From assembly GCF_003334815.1 (NCBI RefSeq), contig NZ_QOWO01000064.1: a DNA stretch of 8,823 nt, one strand, 5' to 3'. Below, piece after piece: positions 1 to 8,823 of this stretch. The translations under genes were made by a program, and so were the position numbers. Under the pieces are notes generated by a model that saw only the letters and a list, made by a program, of their open reading frames with translations, was not told where the DNA came from and searched no databases. Numbering within the stretch: position 1 is the first letter of the stretch; every line of letters starts with the position of its first letter. Source of the DNA: Escherichia coli (GTDB lineage: Bacteria; Pseudomonadota; Gammaproteobacteria; Enterobacterales; Enterobacteriaceae).

Positions 1-46
1 AACGGTGAACAATATCACCCTGGGTAAGTATCCGGAGGCGAAATGA
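1..46 (+). CDS. 3' end of a CbtA/YeeV-family toxin gene (partial; 5' portion lies outside the window)
   Basis: The frame starting at nt 2 translates TVNNITLGKYPEAK followed by TGA at 44-46. This C-terminal tail matches what I recall for CbtA/YeeV/YkfI/YpjF-type toxins of E. coli CP4-type cryptic prophages. The stop overlaps the next start codon (ATGA at 43-46). Recognition is from memory of a 14-residue tail only. Confidence 0.5.
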   Translation, partial: TVNNITLGKYPEAK

Positions 47-534
47 TGAAACTGGCCCTGACACTGGAAGCCGACAGTGTTAACGTACAGGCACTGAATA
101 TGGGGCGAATTGTCGTTGACATTGATGGTGTTAATCTCGCTGAACTGATTAACATGGTCTGCGATAACGGCTACTCCCTTCGTGTTGTTGATGAATCTGA
201 CCGGACCTCAGCAGACTGCACGCCACCATTTGTTGCCCTTACCGGCATACGCTGCAGTACCGCACATATCACGGAAACGGACAACGCCTGGCTGTACTCG
301 CTGTCACACCAGACCAGTGACTTCGGTGAATCAGAATGGATTCATTTTACCGGTACCGGTTATCTGTTACGTACCGATGCGTGGTCATACCCGGTTCTGC
401 GGCTTAAGCGCCTGGGGCTGTCAAAAACGTTCCGTCGTCTGGTCGTCACACTCATCCGGCGTTATGGTGTCAGTCTCATTCATCTGGATGCCAGTGCCGG
501 ATATCTGCCGGGTTTACCCACTTTCGACTGGTAA
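43..534 (+). CDS. Hypothetical protein of the kind encoded immediately downstream of cbtA-family toxin genes (YeeW-like); family assignment uncertain
   Basis: 163-aa ORF in the six-frame track. Its ATG at 43 overlaps the toxin stop by 4 nt, which is typical of coupled prophage modules. The product looks like a normal mixed-composition protein and resembles proteins I recall downstream of cbtA paralogs. GC about 50-58% by hand count on two lines. Confidence 0.6.
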   Translation: MMKLALTLEADSVNVQALNMGRIVVDIDGVNLAELINMVCDNGYSLRVVDESDRTSADCTPPFVALTGIRCSTAHITETDNAWLYSLSHQTSDFGESEWIHFTGTGYLLRTDAWSYPVLRLKRLGLSKTFRRLVVTLIRRYGVSLIHLDASAGYLPGLPTFDW

Positions 535-550
535 TCCGGAAATTCACAAC

Positions 551-727
551 ATGAAATCATTAACCACGGAAACAGCGCTGGATATTCTGATTACGTGGCT
601 GCAGGACAATATCGACTGCGAATCGGGAATTATCTTCGACAACGATGAGGATAAAACAGGTTCGGCAGCACTGTTGCGCTGTATCGAACAGGCCAGGGAG
701 GGTATCCGTACCCTGCGCCAACAGTAA
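551..727 (+). CDS. Small DUF957-like protein (58 aa)
   Basis: ATG at 551, 16 nt after the preceding stop, translates MKSLTTETALDILITWLQDNIDCESGIIFDNDEDKTGSAALLRCIEQAREGIRTLRQQ and ends at TAA 725-727. It resembles the small DUF957 proteins I recall in CP4-type islands. The track ORF 182..727 is the same frame extended upstream into the 43..534 gene, and I treat that 5' part as spurious. No clear Shine-Dalgarno sequence. Confidence 0.55.
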   Translation: MKSLTTETALDILITWLQDNIDCESGIIFDNDEDKTGSAALLRCIEQAREGIRTLRQQ

Positions 728-778
728 CTTTTGCACCAGAACCAGTGAAGATCACTCACCCGATTTCACTTCCCTGAC

Positions 779-809
779 GTCAGCCTGAACACGGCTGGCG
801 TTTTCATTT
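779..809 (+). terminator. Candidate rho-independent terminator after the DUF957-like gene
   Basis: Stem 779-785 (GTCAGCC) pairs with 793-799 (GGCTGGC), giving 7 bp with one G-U pair, around a 7-nt loop. It is followed by the T-rich tail GTTTTCATTT at 800-809. Confidence 0.45.
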
Positions 810-826
810 ATAAACAGAAAGGAAAA

Positions 827-985
827 ATGATGATGTCAGATACCACACTCTCCCGCCCGGAGGTGGTCAGCGGGCATACGGACGTTATCTATTCCACCTC
901 AGTCTGCCACATTCTGGCTGTACGAAAGAGTACACTGTTGCCAATCGACACAATTATCCGGCATCAAGTAAGCGATATCAGTTAA
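827..985 (+). CDS. Candidate small ORF (52 aa), function unknown
   Basis: ATG at 827 is preceded by AAAGGA at 818-823, a reasonable Shine-Dalgarno spacing. It translates MMMSDTTLSRPEVVSGHTDVIYSTSVCHILAVRKSTLLPIDTIIRHQVSDIS and stops at TAA 983-985. It is absent from the supplied ORF track, presumably for being below the length cut-off, and I do not recognise the family. Confidence 0.25.
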   Translation: MMMSDTTLSRPEVVSGHTDVIYSTSVCHILAVRKSTLLPIDTIIRHQVSDIS

Positions 986-1151
986 CCGATATAGATGGGG
1001 AAGATGCTTTTATCCGGATTGGTTCTATCGCGATGGTGCGAGTACCACTTGATGCAATGGAGCCTGTCGAGGAAGATGACGAGTAACAGAGCTCGGTATC
1101 TCAATCAGGACCTGATTGTCCTGGTTCGATGCCGAAAACCAGTGATTTTTC

Positions 1152-1173
1152 GTGTTGGTATCTGTGTTGGTAT
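1152..1173. repeat. Tandem direct repeat of GTGTTGGTAT (two perfect copies, period 12), with a partial third copy GGTGTTG at 1179-1185
   Basis: Read directly from the sequence: GTGTTGGTAT at 1152-1161 and again at 1164-1173. It lies just upstream of the candidate promoter at 1193-1220. Confidence 0.6.
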
Positions 1174-1192
1174 AGGATGGTGTTGTTTATTA

Positions 1193-1220
1193 TTAACAAT
1201 TTTAAATCATGAGGTTAAAT
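1193..1220 (+). promoter_or_regulatory. Candidate sigma70-type promoter (-35 TTAACA, 16-nt spacer, -10 TTAAAT)
   Basis: TTAACA at 1193-1198 matches TTGACA at 5 of 6 positions and TTAAAT at 1215-1220 matches TATAAT at 4 of 6. Judged by eye only; the predicted start site is near 1227-1230. Confidence 0.2.
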
Positions 1221-1263
1221 CGCATGTTTGAGTCCGGTCTTCGCACCACATCGTATGCAAATC

Positions 1264-1288
1264 GAGTCGCTCAAGGGCGGCTTTTTTT
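1264..1288 (+). terminator. Candidate rho-independent terminator
   Basis: Stem GTCGC (1266-1270) pairs with GCGGC (1277-1281) around the loop TCAAGG, and is followed immediately by a run of seven T at 1282-1288. The stem is short at 5 bp, extendable by A-U and G-U pairs into the T-run. Confidence 0.4.
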
Positions 1289-1636
1289 GTACCTGTGTTT
1301 TCACTACTTTGTTTGCATGTAACGCTGATAATCTAAGAACTTCGGAAGCCCCATTTCCATCAATGATGTTCATTCATCATCCTGAAAATTAAGTAGATAT
1401 AAAACTTCATTGCCTTGGTCTAATGGCACAGAAATAGATTGCATTTGGCGAGTGGCATTCTTAGTGCGTCGTTGTTTAGTCATGAAACGATGCGTAAAAT
1501 TGCTGATTTTATGTGTCAAAGTCCCGCAACCGGAGATGGCCTTACTTCAATGATCAACCACTATTGACGTATCCTTTTAATATCTTGATTCAATTCAGCA
1601 GGTTATCGTCCAAAGTACAGCGAAGAGAGAGAAAAG

Positions 1637-4528
1637 ATGATTGGTACAACACCTTATCATGCGAAATATTTTGCGCATGAACTTTCCATTCTTCATTCAA
1701 ACAATGGGGTGGACCGTCTGTCTCAATCGCTGTTTGATGCAAGCGTAGATCTAAACCCTCATCAAATTGAGGCGGCTCTTTTTGCTATCGAAAATCCGCT
1801 AAGCAAAGGTGTTGTGCTTGCCGATGAAGTTGGTTTGGGTAAAACCATTGAAGCTGGACTAGTGCTTTGCCAGTTGTGGGCTGAAAGAAAACGTAAACTG
1901 TTGATCATTTGTCCTGCTTCACTGCGTCGCCAATGGGCGAGCGAGTTACAGGAAAAGTTCAATCTACCTTCTCAGGTGTTGGACGCGAAAATGTATAGCC
2001 AGCTTCAAAAAGAAGGGATCCATAATCCCTTAAATAATAAATCGATCACTATCATGTCATACCACTATGCTGCTCGGTTAGAAGAGAAATTGGTGGCTGA
2101 AATGTGGGATCTGGTTGTTATCGACGAAGCCCATAAACTGCGTAATGCTCATCGAGAAAGCAACAAAATGGGGCAAGCGTTAAAGCGTGCGCTTGATGGG
2201 CGGAAGAAATTACTACTGACCGCAACGCCTTTACAGAACTCGTTGATGGAACTGTATGGCATGTCGACGCTTATAGATGAACATACCTTCGGCGAAGTTA
2301 AAGCGTTCAGAAAGCAATATATGCAGGCAGATAGCGATATTGCGGAGTTGAAGGGGCGATTGTCGCGTTTTATCAAACGAACTCTACGCAAGAATGTGCT
2401 GGAGTATATCAAGTATACAGAACGTAAAGCGATCACTATTCCTTTCTATCCGAGCGAACAGGAGCAGGATCTTTATGAACGCGTACAAAAATTGCTTGAA
2501 CGTGAGGATAGCTATGCCTTACCAAAACGACACCGGCATCTGACGGGGCTTATACTCAGAAAACTACTTTCCTCAAGTACGAAAGCCGTATTGAATAACT
2601 TGCAGATCCTTAAGACTCGTTTAGAAAGGTTAAAGCTGGAAGGTATCGTTGAAGATGATATGGACATCATCCAACAGATCATAATGGATGATGATCTTGA
2701 AGATGACATCGTTGAAGATGCCGAATCAGTAGCGCCAGATACAGAGTGCAAATCTGTGGATTCAGATGCGCTTCAGGCAGAAATCAATGAGCTGGAATCA
2801 CTCATTGTTAAAGCAGAACAGATTGGCACTGATACCAAATCAAAAGAGTTGCTTTCTGGCCTGGAGCAAGGTTTTGCACAGCTTGCCGAAATGGGGGCTG
2901 CAAAAAAAGTCATCATCTTCACGGAGTCGATGCGAACTCAACAGTACCTTGCACATTTTCTGGAAAACAATGGCTACCAGGGAAAAGTAGTAACCTTTAG
3001 TGGCACAAACAATACACCGCAGGCAAACAAGATCTACCAGCAATGGCGCGAGGAATATCAGGGATCTTCTCGTATTACCGGGTCGGCGCAAATTGATAAA
3101 CGCTCGGCTTTGATCGACCACTTCAAAGATCATGCTGAAATCATGATAGCTACAGAAGCTGCAGCTGAAGGGGTGAACCTGCAATTTTGTTCGCTACTGA
3201 TCAATTACGATTTACCCTGGAACCCACAACGCATTGAGCAGCGTATTGGACGTTGTCACCGATACGGGCAAAAATTTGATGTGGTTGTTATTAACTTCCT
3301 CAATCAGCGAAACCAGGCCGATCAACGCGTTCTTGAACTCTTAACTGAAAAGTTCAGCCTGTTTGATGGCGTGTTTGGCGCATCGGATAGTGTGCTTGGC
3401 AGCATAGAAAATGGTGTGGATTTTGAAAAAAGGATCCAGTCAATTTATGAGTCATGCCGTACCCCCGAGGAGATAGAGCTGGCTTTTGAAAGGTTGCAGA
3501 AAGAGCTGGAAGATGAAATCAATCTCAAGATGCAGAAGACGCAAGAACAGTTGCTTGAGCATTTTGATGAAGATATTCACGATATCCTTAAAATAAGGCT
3601 TGATGAAGCTCGGGAGCGCCTGGATAAAGTCGGTCGTTGGTTTTGGGCCGTGACCTGTCAGCAGCTCAAACAATATGCTGATTTTGATCATGAGCATCAT
3701 CGTTTCACTTTACGTGAATCAGTCAATGAACTGCCTGTCGGGCAGTACCAGCTGTTGCGCAAAGATGGCAGGCAAAATAGTGCGTTACAAATGCAGGATC
3801 ACCACAGTTTTGCATATCGGATCAATCATCCACTGGGTGAGTACGTCATTGACGGAGCTAAAGCCCAGGAGACGAAAACAGCTGAAGTCATCTTCGATTA
3901 CAGTAACCACACAACGAAAGTTTCGGTGGCTGAGCAGCTGAAAGGGCAATCAGGATGGTTAACACTAAATTTGCTTACTGTTGATGCGTTTAACAGGCAG
4001 CAATTTTTAGTCTTTACCGCGAAAACTGACAACGGACGTGTGGTAGATGGTGAAGCTTGTAAACGTCTGTTCAACTTGTCTGCAATAACCAACGAAAAGC
4101 TGGATAATTCGGCAAGTTTAGATGCATTACCTGATGACTTGATCTTACTCAAGAACAGGCAAATTGACGCCAGGCTTGCAGAAGTTTTGGAGCAGAACAA
4201 TGTCCTTTTTGAAGCGGAAAGAGATAAGCTGGAAAAATGGGCTGAAGACATGATCTTTGCGGCGGAAGAAGCATTACGCGATACCAAAATGCAAATCAAG
4301 TCGTTGAAGCGAGAAGCCAGGCTGGCGCAATCGATCGAAGAACAAAAGCAAAACCAGGAAAAGCTTAAGCTCCTGGAACGGCAGCAGAAGCGCCAACGTA
4401 TGGAAATTTTTGACATTGAAGATGAGATCGCCGACAAGCGGGATGAACTCATCAGTGCCCTTGAAGAGCGGATGAAGCAAAAGACGGATATCACCGAGCT
4501 GTTTACCATCCGCTGGAAAGTTATTTAA
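1637..4528 (+). CDS. SNF2-family (DEAH-type superfamily 2) helicase/ATPase, 963 aa; candidate DrmD-like component
   Basis: Motifs are visible in the translation: Walker A GLGKT (nt 1832-1846), motif II DEAH (2123-2134), the SNF2-type motif III TATPLQN, and in the C-terminal lobe motif V IATEAAAEGVNLQ and motif VI QRIGRCHRYGQ (3239-3271). A purine-rich Shine-Dalgarno-like stretch (AGAGAGAGAAAAG) precedes the ATG. GC about 43-47% by hand count. Confidence 0.9.
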   Translation: MIGTTPYHAKYFAHELSILHSNNGVDRLSQSLFDASVDLNPHQIEAALFAIENPLSKGVVLADEVGLGKTIEAGLVLCQLWAERKRKLLIICPASLRRQWASELQEKFNLPSQVLDAKMYSQLQKEGIHNPLNNKSITIMSYHYAARLEEKLVAEMWDLVVIDEAHKLRNAHRESNKMGQALKRALDGRKKLLLTATPLQNSLMELYGMSTLIDEHTFGEVKAFRKQYMQADSDIAELKGRLSRFIKRTLRKNVLEYIKYTERKAITIPFYPSEQEQDLYERVQKLLEREDSYALPKRHRHLTGLILRKLLSSSTKAVLNNLQILKTRLERLKLEGIVEDDMDIIQQIIMDDDLEDDIVEDAESVAPDTECKSVDSDALQAEINELESLIVKAEQIGTDTKSKELLSGLEQGFAQLAEMGAAKKVIIFTESMRTQQYLAHFLENNGYQGKVVTFSGTNNTPQANKIYQQWREEYQGSSRITGSAQIDKRSALIDHFKDHAEIMIATEAAAEGVNLQFCSLLINYDLPWNPQRIEQRIGRCHRYGQKFDVVVINFLNQRNQADQRVLELLTEKFSLFDGVFGASDSVLGSIENGVDFEKRIQSIYESCRTPEEIELAFERLQKELEDEINLKMQKTQEQLLEHFDEDIHDILKIRLDEARERLDKVGRWFWAVTCQQLKQYADFDHEHHRFTLRESVNELPVGQYQLLRKDGRQNSALQMQDHHSFAYRINHPLGEYVIDGAKAQETKTAEVIFDYSNHTTKVSVAEQLKGQSGWLTLNLLTVDAFNRQQFLVFTAKTDNGRVVDGEACKRLFNLSAITNEKLDNSASLDALPDDLILLKNRQIDARLAEVLEQNNVLFEAERDKLEKWAEDMIFAAEEALRDTKMQIKSLKREARLAQSIEEQKQNQEKLKLLERQQKRQRMEIFDIEDEIADKRDELISALEERMKQKTDITELFTIRWKVI

Positions 4529-4548: not shown

Positions 4549-7500
4549 ATGAGTAAGTACAACGAATTAGTTAAGAAGCTAAAAGAAATTTTTCAGATTG
4601 ATCGACCAGAACTGGATTTCGGTATTTATCGTATTTTAAATGCGCGTGCTGATGAAATTAACGACTATCTGGATAATAAGCTGAAGGCCAAAATCCAGTC
4701 TGCGCTGGCGGATGCAGGAAATGCCAATAAATCAGAATTAGAACATCAGTTGCAACTGACAATAAAAGCGGCAACTGATGCGGGTGTAGACCCTGCTGAT
4801 AGCCCAAAAGTACAGGAGCTTAAAAAGCAACTGGCGGCTATGGCATCCGGAGCAAATGAGCATGAAAATGCAGTATTTTCCCATCTGCTCACTTTCTTTT
4901 CGCGTTATTATGACAACGGCGATTTTATCAGCAAACGCCGTTATAAAGGTAATACCTACGCCATCCCCTATTCTGGCGAAGAAGTGATGTTGCACTGGGC
5001 AAATAAGGACCAGTACTACATTAAAAGCGGTGAAAACTTCGCTAATTATTCGTTCAAATTAGAAGACGGTCGTAAAGTTAGCTTTAAATTGCTCGCAGCG
5101 GACACAGCAAAAGATAACCGTAAAGATAATGAATTAGATCGCTGCTTTGTACTTATTGAGCCACATGTTCGTACCAAAATTGATGAAGAAGGCGATGAGT
5201 ACGAACAAGAATATAAGCCAGTAGAAGTGGTGAAAAACTCATCTGTGGTGGACGGTAAACTCGTTGAAACAGAAGAGTTAGTTATTCACTTCGAATATAA
5301 GGCAATGAAAAAGGGCACTAAGCAGGATGCTTTAGTACAGTCCGCCATTTCAACAATTCTGGCAGATAAAACAGTTCAACAGCATTGGGTTGATCTTGCT
5401 AAACGTGCGCCAACAGAAAAGAATCCGTCACGTACAGAGTTGGAGCGTCACCTTACAACTTATACCCAGCGTAATACAGCAGACTACTTTATCCATAAAG
5501 ATCTCGGTGGTTTTTTAACGAACGAACTGGATTTTTATATTAAAAATGAAGTAATGAATCTCGATAATGTGCAAAATGCAGAAGTGTTTGCCAATGTTGA
5601 GAAACAATTGCGCATGATTCAATGTTTGCGTGCTGTTGCGCTGGAACTCATTACATTTTTGGCACAAATTGAGAATTTCCAGAAAAAACTTTGGACTAAG
5701 AAGAAGTTTGTTGTTGGGCATGAGTATCTTGTGTCACTTTCAAATCTATCAGATTCGCTTTACGATAAAATTCGAACTAATAAAGGGCAACATGATGAAT
5801 GGGTTGAGCTTTATGCTGTAAATAAAATTCCTGGATATTCATTTCCATTCACAAAAGATTTCTTGTATAAAAATAATGGTATGATATTGGATACAAAATA
5901 TTTTGATCCGTCATTTAAGGAGGTTTTTTTAACAGAGTTAACTAATGTTGACGATAATTTAGATGGTCTCTTAATTAATTCAGATAATTATCAGGCCATT
6001 AATTTTTTGGAGGGGCGGTATAAGGACTCAATAGACTGTCTTTATATTGATCCTCCGTATAATACTGCGGCTTCAGAAATTTTATATAAAAATGAATATA
6101 AGCACAGCAGCTGGAATTCATTAATGTATGAAAGGATATCTAAAAGCTATAATTTACTGAAAATTTCTGCAATTAATTTTACCGCGATAGATCATGCGGA
6201 ATTATATAATCTTGGTAAGATCAAGGATGAAATCTATGGAGAACAAAACAGGATAGCAGTTGTTACTGTTCAGCATAATCCTAAAGGGCGTAACCAGGCA
6301 AAGTTCTTTTCTGAAAATACTGAGTATATGTTAGTATATGCTAAAGATTTTAATGCTGCTAACTTTAACTCTGTAGCTATCGATGAGGATGTGCTTTTAA
6401 CATTCACAGAACAAGATAATATAGGCCGTTATCGTTGGGAAAACTTTATTCGTGCAAGAACAAGTTGGTCCAGAGCAAATAGACCAAATAACTGGTATCC
6501 TTTATACGTCTCTTCCGACTTAAAATCAATTTCTGTTGATTATGTAGATGGGTATATCGAAGTATATCCTACAACTAAACAGGGGGATTTTTCGTGGAAA
6601 AATATTAAAGAATCATTTGTTGAATTAAATAAAGATAATTATTTTAAAGCTGTAAATGAAAATGGAGAAATAAAAATCTATCATAAATATAGGGAGCAGC
6701 AAGTCTTTAAAAATCTTTGGATTGATAAGAAATATCAGTCTGAGTTTAATGGTACAAATTTACTGAAAAACATACTTGGACAATCACTATTTGATTATCC
6801 GAAATCATTATATGCAGTACAAGATGCAATCAAAATGTCGACACCACACAATGGTATTGTATTGGACTATTTTGCAGGTTCAGGGACAACTTCTCATGCA
6901 GTAATAAACCTTAATAATTCAGATAATCTCTGTATGAAATTTATCAATGTTGAAATGGGTACTCATTTCAATACAGTAGTTATTCCAAGATTGAAGAAAA
7001 TTGGATATTCAAACTTATGGAAACAATGTAAACCAATCGGTAAACCTCAAAAAATGACTATCAAGTATTTGAAACTTGAAAGTTATGAGGATGCTCTTAA
7101 TAATATACAATTACGAAGTTATTCATTGCATCAGGATATTTTCGACATTTTGGTGGAAGATGTAAAATCAGAGTTTGCTCTTAAATATATTTTTGAAAAT
7201 GAATTATTTTATTCACTATTAAATACTGATAATTTCAAAAAACCATTTAACTACGAAATGGATATTGCGACGGATTCCGCCGGTGCCACTGAGCGTAAAA
7301 ACATCGATTTAGTTGAAACTTTCAATTATCTCATTGGCTTACATGTGAAATCCATCGAATCTGATATCGCACGTGGCTATGTGCGTATTGAAGGAACGCT
7401 GCCAACAGGCGAGCGTACCCTTATTCTGTGGCGCGATTGCGACAAGATCGGTTATGAAGAATTGAATAAATATGCCAACCGATTTGATTTGTATGCAAAA

Positions 7501-7653
7501 GAAAACACGTTCGACGTTATCTACATCAATGGCGATCATAACTTACCTACCGCCTTTACCGTTGATGAAGAAGACGGCGAGATTGTTCGTAGCCTGAAAA
7601 TTCGCCAGATCGAACCTGAATTCTTGAACCTGATGTTTGCGGAGGAGGTTTAA
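4549..7653 (+). CDS. Beta-class DNA methyltransferase (N6-adenine/N4-cytosine type, Type III Mod-like catalytic core) with a ~420-aa N-terminal extension, 1034 aa; candidate DrmMI-like component
   Basis: Motif IV DPPY (CLYIDPPYN, nt 6049-6060) precedes motif I FxGxG (LDYFAGSGTT, nt 6865-6891) by about 270 residues, which is the beta-class order with room for a target-recognition domain between them. I place the start at ATG 4549, preceded by AAAGAG; the track starts at an in-frame TTG at 4534, which remains a possible alternative. Only 20 nt separate it from the upstream stop. Confidence 0.88.
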   Translation: MSKYNELVKKLKEIFQIDRPELDFGIYRILNARADEINDYLDNKLKAKIQSALADAGNANKSELEHQLQLTIKAATDAGVDPADSPKVQELKKQLAAMASGANEHENAVFSHLLTFFSRYYDNGDFISKRRYKGNTYAIPYSGEEVMLHWANKDQYYIKSGENFANYSFKLEDGRKVSFKLLAADTAKDNRKDNELDRCFVLIEPHVRTKIDEEGDEYEQEYKPVEVVKNSSVVDGKLVETEELVIHFEYKAMKKGTKQDALVQSAISTILADKTVQQHWVDLAKRAPTEKNPSRTELERHLTTYTQRNTADYFIHKDLGGFLTNELDFYIKNEVMNLDNVQNAEVFANVEKQLRMIQCLRAVALELITFLAQIENFQKKLWTKKKFVVGHEYLVSLSNLSDSLYDKIRTNKGQHDEWVELYAVNKIPGYSFPFTKDFLYKNNGMILDTKYFDPSFKEVFLTELTNVDDNLDGLLINSDNYQAINFLEGRYKDSIDCLYIDPPYNTAASEILYKNEYKHSSWNSLMYERISKSYNLLKISAINFTAIDHAELYNLGKIKDEIYGEQNRIAVVTVQHNPKGRNQAKFFSENTEYMLVYAKDFNAANFNSVAIDEDVLLTFTEQDNIGRYRWENFIRARTSWSRANRPNNWYPLYVSSDLKSISVDYVDGYIEVYPTTKQGDFSWKNIKESFVELNKDNYFKAVNENGEIKIYHKYREQQVFKNLWIDKKYQSEFNGTNLLKNILGQSLFDYPKSLYAVQDAIKMSTPHNGIVLDYFAGSGTTSHAVINLNNSDNLCMKFINVEMGTHFNTVVIPRLKKIGYSNLWKQCKPIGKPQKMTIKYLKLESYEDALNNIQLRSYSLHQDIFDILVEDVKSEFALKYIFENELFYSLLNTDNFKKPFNYEMDIATDSAGATERKNIDLVETFNYLIGLHVKSIESDIARGYVRIEGTLPTGERTLILWRDCDKIGYEELNKYANRFDLYAKENTFDVIYINGDHNLPTAFTVDEEDGEIVRSLKIRQIEPEFLNLMFAEEV
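7641..7648 (+). promoter_or_regulatory. Shine-Dalgarno sequence GGAGGAGG for the third gene, embedded in the last codons of the methyltransferase gene
   Basis: GGAGGAGG lies 7 nt upstream of ATG 7656. The methyltransferase stop (7651-7653) and the next start are 2 nt apart, which suggests translational coupling. Confidence 0.6.
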
Positions 7654-7655
7654 GA

Positions 7656-8669
7656 ATGGCTAAAAAACCGACCACCGGTAAAGCAGTTAAAAAAGAGACT
7701 AACAGCAAGCTGAGCTTTCATAAACAACTGGTTTTAAACCGCTTTATGTTCCATTTTTTCAAAGATGGCACATTGCAAGGTTTGAAGAATCGGTTAGGCG
7801 AGGATCGCTTTGAAGGCATCCATGAAGATGGCCAAAGCTTGTTCTTCCATGAGCTGAGTAACTATTTATTCGAGGTCGATCTAATCGATCTCGATGAACT
7901 GCGTCGTTACGATCTCAATATCGTGCAGCACTGGCAGCAGATAACCGAGCACCGTAATCGTAAAGAAGACACTGTGCTGAACATGAAATATTTTCAGTAC
8001 TTGTCGCTTCTGTTTACCGAGATCTACCTGGACTGGTACTTCAATCGTAAACAGCAATTACTCGATGGGCTAAATAACGAGCTGGCAGCATACAATGCTG
8101 AAAATGATAAAACAGCAAAAGACCGGGCTAATCAGTTCAAATCATATGTTCTGGATGATTTGAATAAATTGGCATACTGGAACGCTACTGGTTCTGGTAA
8201 GACACTGCTATTACATGTCAATATTTTGCAATATTTACATTATTTCCAGAACGGTAATAGCCATCATTATCCGGATAAAATCATCCTGCTTACGCCGGAT
8301 GAACGCCTGTCGAAGCAACATTTAGATGAACTGGAAAACTCAGGGTTTACCCAATACCAGTTGTTCGATAAGAGTAAATCAGCGCCCTTCAAAGGCACGA
8401 TTGAAGTCATTGATATCAATAAACTTGATGATAAAATGGGCGACAAAACTGTTGCCGTTGAGGCATTTGAAGGCAACAATCTGGTCCTGATTGATGAAGG
8501 GCATAAAGGCACAGGAAGTGCTGCTGGTGCCTGGATGCGCCGTCGTGACAAGTTAACTCGTGACGGATTTGCGTTTGAATATTCAGCAACTTTTGGCCAG
8601 GCAGTAGCCGGTGGCAATAATGTGGAGGCAGTTGAAACAGAAATTCAGAAGAAAAAAGCAAAGCTCTGA
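7656..8669 (+). CDS. Helicase-like ATPase containing only the first RecA-like lobe (Type III Res-like / DrmA-like N-terminal region), 337 aa; probably truncated or disrupted
   Basis: Walker A ATGSGKT (nt 8184-8204; GSGKT at 8190-8204), motif II LIDEGH (DEGH at 8493-8504) and a motif III-like SAT (8583-8591) are present. The ORF stops at 8667-8669 with no motifs IV-VI and no arginine-finger region. The following 8670-8732 has stops in all three forward frames. Confidence 0.75.
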   Translation: MAKKPTTGKAVKKETNSKLSFHKQLVLNRFMFHFFKDGTLQGLKNRLGEDRFEGIHEDGQSLFFHELSNYLFEVDLIDLDELRRYDLNIVQHWQQITEHRNRKEDTVLNMKYFQYLSLLFTEIYLDWYFNRKQQLLDGLNNELAAYNAENDKTAKDRANQFKSYVLDDLNKLAYWNATGSGKTLLLHVNILQYLHYFQNGNSHHYPDKIILLTPDERLSKQHLDELENSGFTQYQLFDKSKSAPFKGTIEVIDINKLDDKMGDKTVAVEAFEGNNLVLIDEGHKGTGSAAGAWMRRRDKLTRDGFAFEYSATFGQAVAGGNNVEAVETEIQKKKAKL

Positions 8670-8823
8670 GAGATCCCCTCATAATTTCCCCAAAGCGTAA
8701 CCATGTGTGAATAAATTTTGAGCTAGTAGGGTTGCAGCCACGAGTAAGTCTTCCCTTGTTATTGTGTAGCCAGAATGCCGCAAAACTTCCATGCCTAAGC
8801 GAACTGTTGAGAGTACGTTTCGA

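What the first reader, a model, noticed from the sequence alone, without database searches (positions are those of the whole stretch)
4549..5820. About 420-aa N-terminal extension on the methyltransferase with no recognisable catalytic motif
Classical Type III Mod proteins reach DPPY within roughly the first 100-150 residues, as far as I recall, whereas here DPPY is near residue 500. The preceding region (MSKYNELVKKLKEIFQIDRPELDFGIYRILNARADEINDYLDNKLKAK...) is a separate domain of unknown role. It could act as a sensor, a partner-docking domain for the SNF2 helicase, or a DNA reader.
Basis: partly seen in the sequence, partly recalled or inferred. Interest (0 to 1): 0.45.

Follow-up and report, generated by a model that had tools for sequence, protein, structure and literature searches.

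The report
Constant N-terminal module of long Mod
The first ~385 residues of this E. coli DNA methyltransferase form a real, highly conserved, non-catalytic module of unknown fold. It stays constant while the enzyme's specificity core is swapped between strains, so it most likely anchors the methylase to its helicase-nuclease partner.

Summary
The 1034-aa ORF (4549-7653) has DPPY at residue 501 and FAGSG at 775. Pfam sees only N6_N4_Mtase at 495-804. Homology to solved Type III Mods starts near residue 468, where those proteins are at about residue 90.

It is not an orphan. A full-length PADLOC "MTase_III" model covers it, and 2353 clusters across bacteria and archaea carry it.

New result: the protein is built as constant, variable, constant. 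Residues 1-385 and about 886-1034 are ~99-100% identical between E. coli alleles, as are SNF2 and Res. Residues 386-885 (MTase plus TRD) drop to 10-50%. About 150 E. coli genomes share the N-module; 17 share this cassette.

A sister family keeps the module, pairs with a homologous long Res, and showed no SNF2 gene in five loci. The module is therefore not an SNF2-specific adaptor. Polar invariants are not shared between families, which argues against catalysis.

Best reading (inferred): it is an assembly and communication chassis for Res, possibly also SNF2, or for Mod dimerisation. In this window res is truncated by IS10.

The parts
4549..5703 (+). N-module (residues 1-385): the constant, non-catalytic N-terminal module, which is the finding itself
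4549..4647 (+). Residues 1-33: N-terminal helix plus the DLDFGIYRI(L/M)N motif
   Evidence: L22, F24 and G25 are invariant; D23, Y27, R28 and I29 are >=90% conserved. Helices 2-15 and 25-32.
4648..4908 (+). Residues 34-120: long antiparallel helical hairpin (helices 34-77 and 86-120)
   Evidence: AF2 secondary structure. The tip is variable (27-39% identity). The hairpin is 85-86 aa in most relatives and ~40 aa in Pasteurellaceae, Neisseria and Akkermansia; the sister family lacks residues ~54-103.
4909..5028 (+). Residues 121-160: GDFISxRRYK...YAIPYxGEEVxLHWANxDQYYIKS, the most conserved stretch of the protein but not modelled by AF2 as a monomer
   Evidence: 71-82% identity to the query across 89 homologues. 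pLDDT below 50 for 135-148 and 136-150. The sister family has a different, equally fixed sequence here.
5029..5313 (+). Residues 161-255: beta-rich subdomain with a lineage-specific insertion (residues ~205-238)
   Evidence: Strands 166-254. Gap fraction 0.25 and 6-15% identity in 201-240.
5314..5703 (+). Residues 256-385: helical subdomain with DYFIHKDLGGFL..ELDFYIKNE and the basic end of a long helix, FLAQLExFQKKLWxKKKF
   Evidence: About 70% identity in 301-340. D312, F314 and E375 are invariant and K317, K384 and K386 >=90% conserved in both families. pI 9.65 for 346-400.
5704..7203 (+). Variable cassette (residues ~386-885): helices equivalent to the canonical Mod NTD, MTase motifs IV (DPPY, nt 6049) and I (FAGSG, nt 6871), and the TRD
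   Evidence: 45-60% nt identity to another E. coli allele whose flanks are 99-100% identical. The same pattern is seen against Shewanella and Arsukibacterium. Low GC of 0.29-0.34. Pfam PF01555 at 495-804. Homology to 4ZCF, 6K0W and 7DSU.
7204..7653 (+). Constant C-terminal domain (residues ~886-1034)
   Evidence: 90-100% identical between E. coli alleles and 85-89% to Shewanella and Arsukibacterium over 941-1034.
1637..4528 (+). SNF2-family helicase (963 aa; DrmD-, BrxHII- and RapA-like), the upstream partner gene
   Evidence: PADLOC DrmD 4e-199 and BrxHI|BrxHII 7e-74. NCBIfam DISARM_DrmD_b scores 667 bits, below its cutoff of 950. RapA is the best PDB relative. Adjacent in 65 of 69 evaluable loci.
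7656..8665 (+). Res-like SF2 helicase-nuclease gene, truncated here (intact form is 1126 aa)
   Evidence: PADLOC REase_III PDLC03654, 4e-205, model positions 7-341 of 1154. The intact gene is in L001 at 16656-20036. A conserved C-terminal PD...DPK motif (P1023, D1024, D1043, P1044, K1045) is present in 67 sequences.
8666..8823 (.). End of an IS10 / ISVsa5 (IS4-family) element that interrupts res
   Evidence: 100% identical to IS4-like ISVsa5 copies on R100 and other plasmids. Identity to intact E. coli loci stops at 8665.

Best explanation
Residues 1-385 form a non-catalytic 'constant' module. It consists of a helical hairpin, an ultra-conserved loop, a beta subdomain and a helical subdomain. 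Together with the last ~150 residues it forms the invariant chassis of a modular, Type III-like Mod subunit. The central cassette (residues ~386-885) carries everything a canonical Mod has: NTD-like helices, beta-class N6-adenine MTase motifs and the TRD. That cassette is exchanged by recombination to change specificity. The chassis most likely mediates assembly and communication with the conserved partners and/or Mod-Mod dimerisation. The long Res helicase-nuclease is present in all but one evaluable locus, and the SNF2 motor is an added partner in this family. Shown: the boundaries, the conservation, the lack of any catalytic signature or fold relative, the co-inheritance with SNF2 and Res, and the persistence of the module without SNF2. 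Inferred: that the constraint is protein-protein docking or dimerisation, and that the unmodelled loop 121-160 orders only in the complex.
For: 1) Mosaic structure. Against E. coli STN0717-20, SNF2, Mod residues 1-~380, Mod residues ~900-1034 and Res are mostly 96-100% identical at nucleotide level, while window ~5700-7230 drops to 31-67% nt and 10-50% aa. Against Shewanella and Arsukibacterium, the N-module is 79-89%, SNF2 67-82% and Res 82-83% identical, but residues 386-830 are only 17-49%.
2) Population data. 150-158 complete E. coli genomes carry the N-module DNA at >=95% identity, but only 17 carry this cassette.
3) Residues 121-160 and 301-340 are the most conserved stretches of the protein, at 71-82% against 63% for the DPPY block. 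Yet 135-150 has pLDDT below 50 in two otherwise confident monomer models. That is typical of segments that fold on a partner.
4) Residues conserved in both the main and sister families are mainly hydrophobic or aromatic. The acidic invariants D125, E144, E145, D154, E326, D328 and E334 are replaced in the sister family by other, equally fixed residues. This pattern fits family-specific interfaces, not a shared active site.
5) Res accompanies the module in 70 of 71 evaluable loci. Res of both families is homologous over 168-1051 and carries its own nuclease motif.
6) In EcoP15I the Mod NTD forms the Mod2 dimer interface and the CTD contacts Res (PMC4490356). The constant termini here are expanded versions of those positions.
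7) The full-length model has pTM 0.84, so the module is packed against the rest of the protein and not tethered loosely.
Against: No direct evidence of any contact exists: no multimer model, no covariation analysis (about 70 paired operons is too few) and no experiment. Recombination breakpoints naturally fall in whatever is conserved, so the mosaic shows constraint and co-inheritance, not the nature of the constraint. Conserved basic residues (R119, K159, K192, K317, K384, K386; the QKKLWxKKKF stretch; pI 9.65 for 346-400) could equally contact DNA. The co-inheritance cannot separate Res docking, SNF2 docking and Mod dimerisation.
Confidence: 0.5

Rival explanations
1. The module is a non-specific DNA-binding clamp or DNA reader. 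It holds flanking DNA, senses methylation state or loads DNA onto the motors, and is not primarily a protein-docking platform.
For: The conserved basic positions shared by both families are R119, K159, K192, K317, K384 and K386, and there is a basic stretch at 346-400 with pI 9.65. The module contains a beta-rich subdomain of the general kind often used for nucleic-acid binding. It is constant while the specificity cassette varies, as expected for sequence-independent DNA contacts.
Confidence: 0.2
2. One reading: the module is specifically the docking site for the SNF2 helicase.
For: In the main family SNF2 is adjacent in 65 of 69 evaluable loci, 58 upstream and 7 downstream of res. SNF2 and the N-module are co-inherited across cassette swaps. 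The main family has extra elements absent from the sister family, namely the hairpin tip 54-103 and its own invariants. SNF2 has an uncharacterised C-terminal ~280 aa, beyond the stretch matched by the best DrmD model (residues 31-684), that could be the counterpart.
Against: The sister family keeps the module from ~105 to 470 (hhalign probability 100) and showed no SNF2 in 5 of 5 loci examined, two of them degraded. Four SNF2-less main-family loci retain the whole module and 50-51 of 52 invariants. Hairpin length (86 against 40 aa) does not track SNF2 presence. No SNF2-Mod fusion appears among the 150 best relatives.
Confidence: 0.12
3. The module is a regulatory or sensor domain. It would gate methylation against restriction, for example by autoinhibition relieved by Res or ATP, or it would detect phage anti-restriction proteins.
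For: It is a large conserved non-catalytic module in a defence enzyme. An unmodelled conserved loop could act as a switch. By general analogy with N-terminal domains of Type I HsdM (my recollection, not tested).
Confidence: 0.1
4. The module is a cryptic enzyme, for example a divergent nuclease as in Type IIG or Type ISP enzymes, or another DNA-modifying activity.
For: Many invariant charged residues occur within the main family: D125, E144, E145, D154, K159, D312, H316, E326, D328, K332 and E334.
Confidence: 0.03

Closest known systems
Canonical Type III R-M Mod subunits (EcoP15I 4ZCF, H. pylori Mod 6K0W, Mbo45V 7DSU)
   Same: A beta-class N6-adenine MTase with motif IV (DPPY) before motif I (FxGxG), and the TRD inserted between them. 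The order is mod then res with a 2-nt gap. Res has an SF2 motor plus a C-terminal PD-(D/E)xK motif. In EcoP15I the termini of Mod serve dimerisation (NTD) and Res contact (CTD).
   Different: Canonical Mods have about 90 residues before the point where homology begins; this one has about 467. It also has a larger C-terminal domain. Res here is 1126 aa with about 165 extra N-terminal residues and gives no detectable phmmer hit to EcoP15I Res or any other PDB chain. A SNF2 gene is usually attached.
Allelic Type III mod genes with conserved ends and a variable central region (phasevarion modA/modH-type alleles; my recollection, not tested here)
   Same: A constant, variable, constant layout with recombinational exchange of the central specificity region.
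   Different: Here the exchanged cassette is about 500 aa and includes the catalytic motifs and the NTD-like helices, not only the TRD. The constant 5' part is a 385-aa extra module rather than the MTase N-lobe.
Sister family of long Mods (PADLOC PDLC03638; e.g. Rhodothermus marinus pRHOM17201 WP_014072507.1, 899 aa)
   Same: A homologous N-module from about residue 105 to 470 and a homologous MTase (hhalign probability 100 over 109-926). The partner is a homologous long Res. The module is likewise highly conserved across bacteria and archaea.
   Different: It lacks the hairpin tip (residues ~54-103) and has different fixed residues in the loops. No SNF2 gene was seen in the 5 loci examined.
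SNF2-plus-methyltransferase defence systems: DISARM class 1 (DrmD + DrmMI) and BREX type 3 / BR systems (BrxHII + PglXI / DUF1156 MTase; PMC12839542)
   Same: A RapA/DrmD/BrxHII-like SNF2 helicase is encoded next to an adenine MTase that has an uncharacterised N-terminal region. In BREX-3 and BR systems the MTase is also PF01555 with a nested TRD.
   Different: No DrmA, DrmB or DrmC and no BrxC, PglZ or DUF499 genes are present. The MTase hits no DrmMI or PglXI model in PADLOC and no DUF1156 in Pfam. The SNF2 scores below the NCBIfam DrmD cutoffs. The effector is a Type III-like Res.
Type IIG / Type ISP enzymes (MmeI, LlaGI, LlaBIII) with an N-terminal nuclease ahead of the MTase
   Same: A large N-terminal region precedes the methyltransferase in one polypeptide.
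   Different: Those N-terminal regions are PD-(D/E)xK or Mrr nucleases attached to gamma-class MTases. Here no nuclease fold or shared catalytic residues are present, and the nuclease motif is in Res.

Membership tests
Type III R-M, Mod subunit | Beta-class amino-MTase: motif IV (DPPY) N-terminal to motif I (FxGxG), with the TRD between them | tested here: met
   DPPY at 501 and FAGSG at 775. PF01555 at 495-804. EcoP15I, 6K0W and 7DSU Mods hit at E 1e-59 to 1e-61 with the profile and 1e-18 to 1e-22 by Foldseek. The region 546-745 is hypervariable.
Type III R-M, Mod subunit | A cognate res gene immediately downstream, encoding an SF2 helicase with a C-terminal PD-(D/E)xK nuclease | tested here: met
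   res starts 2 nt after the mod stop. ResIII and DEAD Pfam hits. PADLOC REase_III. Conserved P1023-D1024...D1043-P-K1045. Caveat: there is no sequence hit to EcoP15I Res, and in this window res is cut by IS10.
Type III R-M, Mod subunit | Canonical size and layout: short helical NTD (~90 aa), then MTase/TRD, then CTD, about 550-650 aa in total | tested here: not met
   The protein is 1034 aa, with about 467 aa before the start of homology. This is why I file it as a variant and not a typical member.
Type III R-M, Mod subunit | Biochemistry: hemimethylation of an asymmetric site, with ATP-dependent cleavage needing two inversely oriented unmethylated sites | not testable with these tools
   No methylome or cleavage data are available.
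PADLOC/REBASE cluster MTase_III PDLC03646 | Full-length match to the family model | tested here: met
   E = 0, 1551 bits, residues 1-1034 against model positions 1-1057 of 1057.
DISARM class 1 (DrmMI) | The MTase matches DrmMI models and the locus also has drmA, drmB (DUF1998) and drmC | tested here: not met
   No DrmMI hit in PADLOC or NCBIfam. The intact locus has only three genes: SNF2, MTase and Res. The SNF2 scores 667 bits against a cutoff of 950 for DrmD_b.
BREX type 3 / BR-system MTase (PglXI, DUF1156) | A DUF1156 or PglXI-type N-terminus plus BrxC/DUF499 and PglZ or helicase-nuclease neighbours | tested here: not met
   No DUF1156 in Pfam, no PglXI model hit, and no such neighbours.
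Type IIG / ISP-style N-terminal nuclease | A PD-(D/E)xK or Mrr fold with conserved catalytic D...(D/E)xK in the N-terminal region | tested here: not met

The most novel reading that the evidence does not exclude
The 385-aa module is a new fold. It would act as the physical hub through which one Type III-like Mod dimer recruits two different SF2 motors: a Res helicase-nuclease and a RapA/DrmD-like SNF2 translocase. That would make this three-gene operon a minimal, tractable relative of DISARM and BREX-3, in which SNF2-methylase cooperation could be dissected. The ultra-conserved, unmodelled loop 121-160 would be the switch that couples site recognition by the swappable cassette to motor activation.
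Probability: 0.2. Interest if true: 0.7.

Novelty: new variant of a known kind. Interest (0 to 1): 0.5.

Why it matters
How SNF2-family helicases cooperate with methyltransferases in DISARM, BREX type 3 and related systems is unresolved. This operon is a three-gene version of that pairing, built on a recognisable Type III chassis. It is widespread: at least 584 of about 100,000 species genomes and 2353 50%-identity clusters, spanning bacteria and archaea. Natural E. coli alleles differ only in the central cassette. The N-module carries the two most conserved stretches of Mod, has no fold relative, and defines the constant frame. It is therefore the obvious place to look for the subunit-coupling mechanism. 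Practically, the breakpoints at residues ~385 and ~885 give ready-made junctions for engineering methylases of new specificity on a fixed chassis. The module also deserves its own domain family in Pfam or InterPro.

Tried and rejected
1) Recognising the module by sequence. Pfam on the protein, on 30 homologues and on a sister-family member found nothing. NCBIfam, PHROGs, and PDB searches by phmmer and with two profiles (A2, A4) also found nothing.
3) Nuclease hypothesis (a Type IIG-like N-terminus). Rejected: residues are not shared with the sister family, the motif context is wrong, and the nuclease motif is in Res.
4) 'The hairpin tip is the SNF2-specific element.' Rejected. Short-hairpin variants (~40 aa) still have SNF2, and SNF2-less loci keep the 86-aa hairpin.
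5) 'N-module plus DUF559 endonuclease is an alternative architecture.' Rejected. In P0104 the MTase sequence resumes after the DUF559 segment, so it is an in-frame mobile insertion in the 428-436 linker. In P0298 and P0301 the same kind of insertion truncates the gene, and no MTase remainder lies downstream.
6) Relaxed conservation in SNF2-less loci. Not seen and not discriminating.
7) Literature. Six full-text searches and five papers read gave no description of this triad or module.
8) Inter-protein covariation was not attempted, because about 70 paired operons are too few.
Full report
WHAT IS THERE. The window is part of an E. coli leuX-type island. It is 100% identical to several complete genomes up to position 8665. 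[quoted passage not shown] The methyltransferase ORF is 4549-7653. It has an ATG behind an AAAGAG Shine-Dalgarno-like site, 20 nt after the SNF2 stop and 2 nt before the res start. DPPY lies at residue 501 and FAGSG at 775.

Pfam recognises only N6_N4_Mtase at 495-804. A profile of 90 homologues aligns with the solved Type III Mods 6K0W, 7DSU and 4ZCF only from about residue 468. Those proteins are at residues 89-91 at that point, so their DPPY is near 120-130.

The module has five parts:
- an N-terminal helix with the DLDFGIYRI motif;
- a long helical hairpin (34-120);
- a loop (121-160) that AF2 cannot place;
- a beta-rich subdomain (161-255) with a lineage-specific insertion;
- a helical subdomain (256-385) ending in the basic helix FLAQLExFQKKLWxKKKF.

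The family itself is catalogued. PADLOC's REBASE-derived model MTase_III PDLC03646 matches residues 1-1034 end to end. It is not met in the sense of 'well characterised'. Six literature searches found no paper on it.

HOW WIDESPREAD AND HOW CONSERVED. The N-terminal 473 aa have 2353 relatives among 50%-identity cluster representatives. Among the 150 best these lie at, or within about 110 residues of, the N-terminus, and the complete ones are proteins of about 1000-1166 aa. A scan of one genome per species found at least 584 carriers across all major bacterial phyla. Plasmid hits add haloarchaea and Thermotogae. Residues 121-160 (71-82% identity across 89 homologues of 34-64% overall identity) and 301-340 (about 70%) are the most conserved stretches of the whole protein. 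They exceed the DPPY block at 63%.

THE KEY NEW RESULT: CONSTANT, VARIABLE, CONSTANT. I compared the operon with the allele of E. coli STN0717-20. SNF2, Mod residues 1-~380, Mod residues ~900-1034 and Res are mostly 96-100% identical at nucleotide level. Window ~5700-7230 falls to 31-67% nucleotide and 10-50% amino-acid identity. The same breakpoints appear against Shewanella and Arsukibacterium. There the N-module is 79-89%, SNF2 67-82%, Res 82-83% and the C-terminal tail 85-89% identical, but residues 386-830 are only 17-49%. The variable segment coincides with a GC trough of 0.29-0.34, against 0.40-0.45 in the flanks.

Among 5426 complete E. coli genomes, 150-158 carry the N-module DNA at >=95% identity, but only 17 carry this cassette. 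The cassette (residues ~386-885) therefore holds everything a canonical Mod has: NTD-like helices, catalytic motifs and the TRD. It is the exchangeable specificity unit. The N-module and the C-terminal ~150 aa are the fixed frame that travels with SNF2 and Res. An independent marker of the boundary region is the variable linker at 428-436, just inside the cassette. In a Methylovulum homologue a DUF559/Vsr-like endonuclease is inserted there in frame, and the MTase sequence resumes after it.

PARTNERS. Among the 82 related loci examined, Res is present in 70 of 71 evaluable cases. SNF2 is present in 65 of 69: 58 upstream, and 7 downstream of res in Pasteurellaceae and Neisseria. Res carries a conserved C-terminal P-D...D-P-K motif (1023-1045) in 67 sequences. 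The nuclease therefore sits where Type III enzymes have it, and Mod does not need to supply one.

A sister family (PADLOC PDLC03638; Rhodothermus, Athalassotoga, Defluviitoga and others) shares the module from about residue 105 to 470 (hhalign probability 100). It pairs with a homologous long Res (hhalign 168-1051 against 121-923). It has no SNF2 gene in five of five loci, two of which are degraded. Four evaluable main-family loci without SNF2 keep the whole module and 50-51 of 52 family invariants. Hairpin length does not follow SNF2 presence. The module is therefore older than, and independent of, the SNF2 association. It cannot be simply 'the SNF2 docking domain', although main-family-specific surfaces may still bind SNF2.

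CATALYSIS IS UNLIKELY. Positions conserved in both families are mostly hydrophobic or aromatic, plus R119, K159, N190, K192, D312, K317, Q373, E375, K384 and K386. The acidic invariants of the main family (D125, E144, E145, D154, E326, D328, E334) are replaced in the sister family by other residues that are just as fixed. That is the signature of structural cores and co-evolving interfaces, not of a shared active site.

MOST LIKELY MECHANISM (inferred). In EcoP15I the helical NTDs of two Mods intertwine to form the Mod2 interface, and the CTD of one Mod holds Res (PMC4490356). Here the two termini are greatly enlarged and are the constant parts. I therefore propose that residues 1-385, with the C-terminal domain, form the assembly and communication chassis. 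This chassis would dimerise Mod and/or dock the long Res, and in this family probably also the SNF2. It would transmit the 'unmethylated site found' signal from the swappable cassette to the motors. The loop 121-160 is extremely conserved but unmodelled in the monomer, which makes it the prime candidate for an inter-subunit element. My confidence is about 0.5. The main rival is a non-specific DNA clamp or reader (0.2), supported by the conserved basic patch. Exclusive SNF2 docking (0.12), a regulatory sensor (0.1) and a cryptic enzyme (0.03) follow.

CLASSIFICATION AND NOVELTY. The protein works like, and by its core is, a Type III Mod: a beta-class MTase with a nested TRD, mod-res order and a Res with motor plus C-terminal nuclease motif. 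It fails the canonical layout in three ways. It has about 467 aa, not ~90, before the point where homology to canonical Mods begins. Its Res has no detectable similarity to EcoP15I Res. It has an attached SNF2. It is not DISARM, because there is no DrmA, DrmB or DrmC and no DrmMI hit, and the SNF2 scores below the DrmD cutoffs. It is not BREX-3 or a BR system, because there is no DUF1156, PglXI, BrxC or PglZ. It does share their SNF2-plus-PF01555-MTase theme. I rate it a new variant of a known kind: a catalogued but uncharacterised family whose N-module lacks a domain definition, a fold relative and a known function.

STATE OF THIS COPY. In the window, res is cut after codon 337 by the end of an IS10/ISVsa5 element (8666-8823). 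This strain most likely retains SNF2 and the methylase but has lost restriction.

Noticed in passing
window 8666-8823 (junction at 8665/8666): The res gene is truncated after codon ~337 by the terminal 158 bp of an IS10 / IS4-like ISVsa5 element, identical to the copies on R100. Intact alleles encode 1126 aa. The strain probably keeps SNF2 and Mod as a restriction-dead remnant.
   Followed up: yes
window ~5700-7230: A low-GC (0.29-0.34) central cassette of mod is exchanged between alleles. About 150 E. coli genomes share the flanks but only 17 share this cassette. The number and specificities of the alternative cassettes were not catalogued.
   Followed up: partly
P0104 (L088 2750-4761); P0298/P0301 (L087 9001-10959): A DUF559/MTES_1575 (Vsr-like) endonuclease segment, flanked by Pro/Gly-rich repeat-like sequence, is inserted in frame in the 428-436 linker of a Methylovulum homologue. 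Similar insertions truncate sister-family genes in several clusters. This looks like a recurrent mobile insertion at the domain boundary.
   Followed up: partly
L008 13120-14217, L024 6972-8006, L016 10393-12239 and about 20 other loci (between mod and res): Many relatives carry unrelated genes wedged between mod and res. They include a YhcG/DUF1016 PDDEXK nuclease (Pfam 4e-57), a RhuM-family protein (2e-110), and an AAA ATPase (weak MAD3-like hit) followed by a ~220-aa ORF. This resembles the cargo often seen inside Type I R-M operons (that comparison is from memory).
   Followed up: partly
L042, L044, L046-L048, L050, L055: In Pasteurellaceae, Neisseria and Cardiobacterium the gene order is mod-res-SNF2 instead of SNF2-mod-res. 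Where it could be measured (L044, L046, L048, L050, L055), these Mods have a short (~40 aa) helical hairpin.
   Followed up: partly
L001 16656-20036 (window 7656-): The Res-like protein has about 165 conserved residues ahead of helicase motif I (GSGKT at 179-183). It has no phmmer hit to any PDB chain, including EcoP15I Res. Sister-family Res proteins carry a Pfam 'YagJ' domain in precomputed annotations.
   Followed up: partly
window 1637-4528 (residues ~685-963 of SNF2): The SNF2 protein extends about 280 aa beyond the stretch matched by the best PADLOC DrmD model (residues 31-684). The tail (residues ~830-945) is very rich in charged residues and looks coiled-coil-like by eye. Its function is unknown, and it is a candidate partner surface.
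   Followed up: no
window 1-1636: Upstream lie CP4-type island genes (DUF5983 at 43-534, DUF957 at 551-727) and two short pseudogene remnants, including an HTH regulator fragment (~833-1086). About 550 nt of non-coding DNA then precedes SNF2. A distant homologous operon (L003) has an intact HTH_17 gene immediately upstream of SNF2.
   Followed up: no
L092 6282-11408: A Defluviitoga sister-family locus has two long Mod genes in tandem (one 867 aa, one split into 526 + 268 aa) ahead of a single Res.
   Followed up: no
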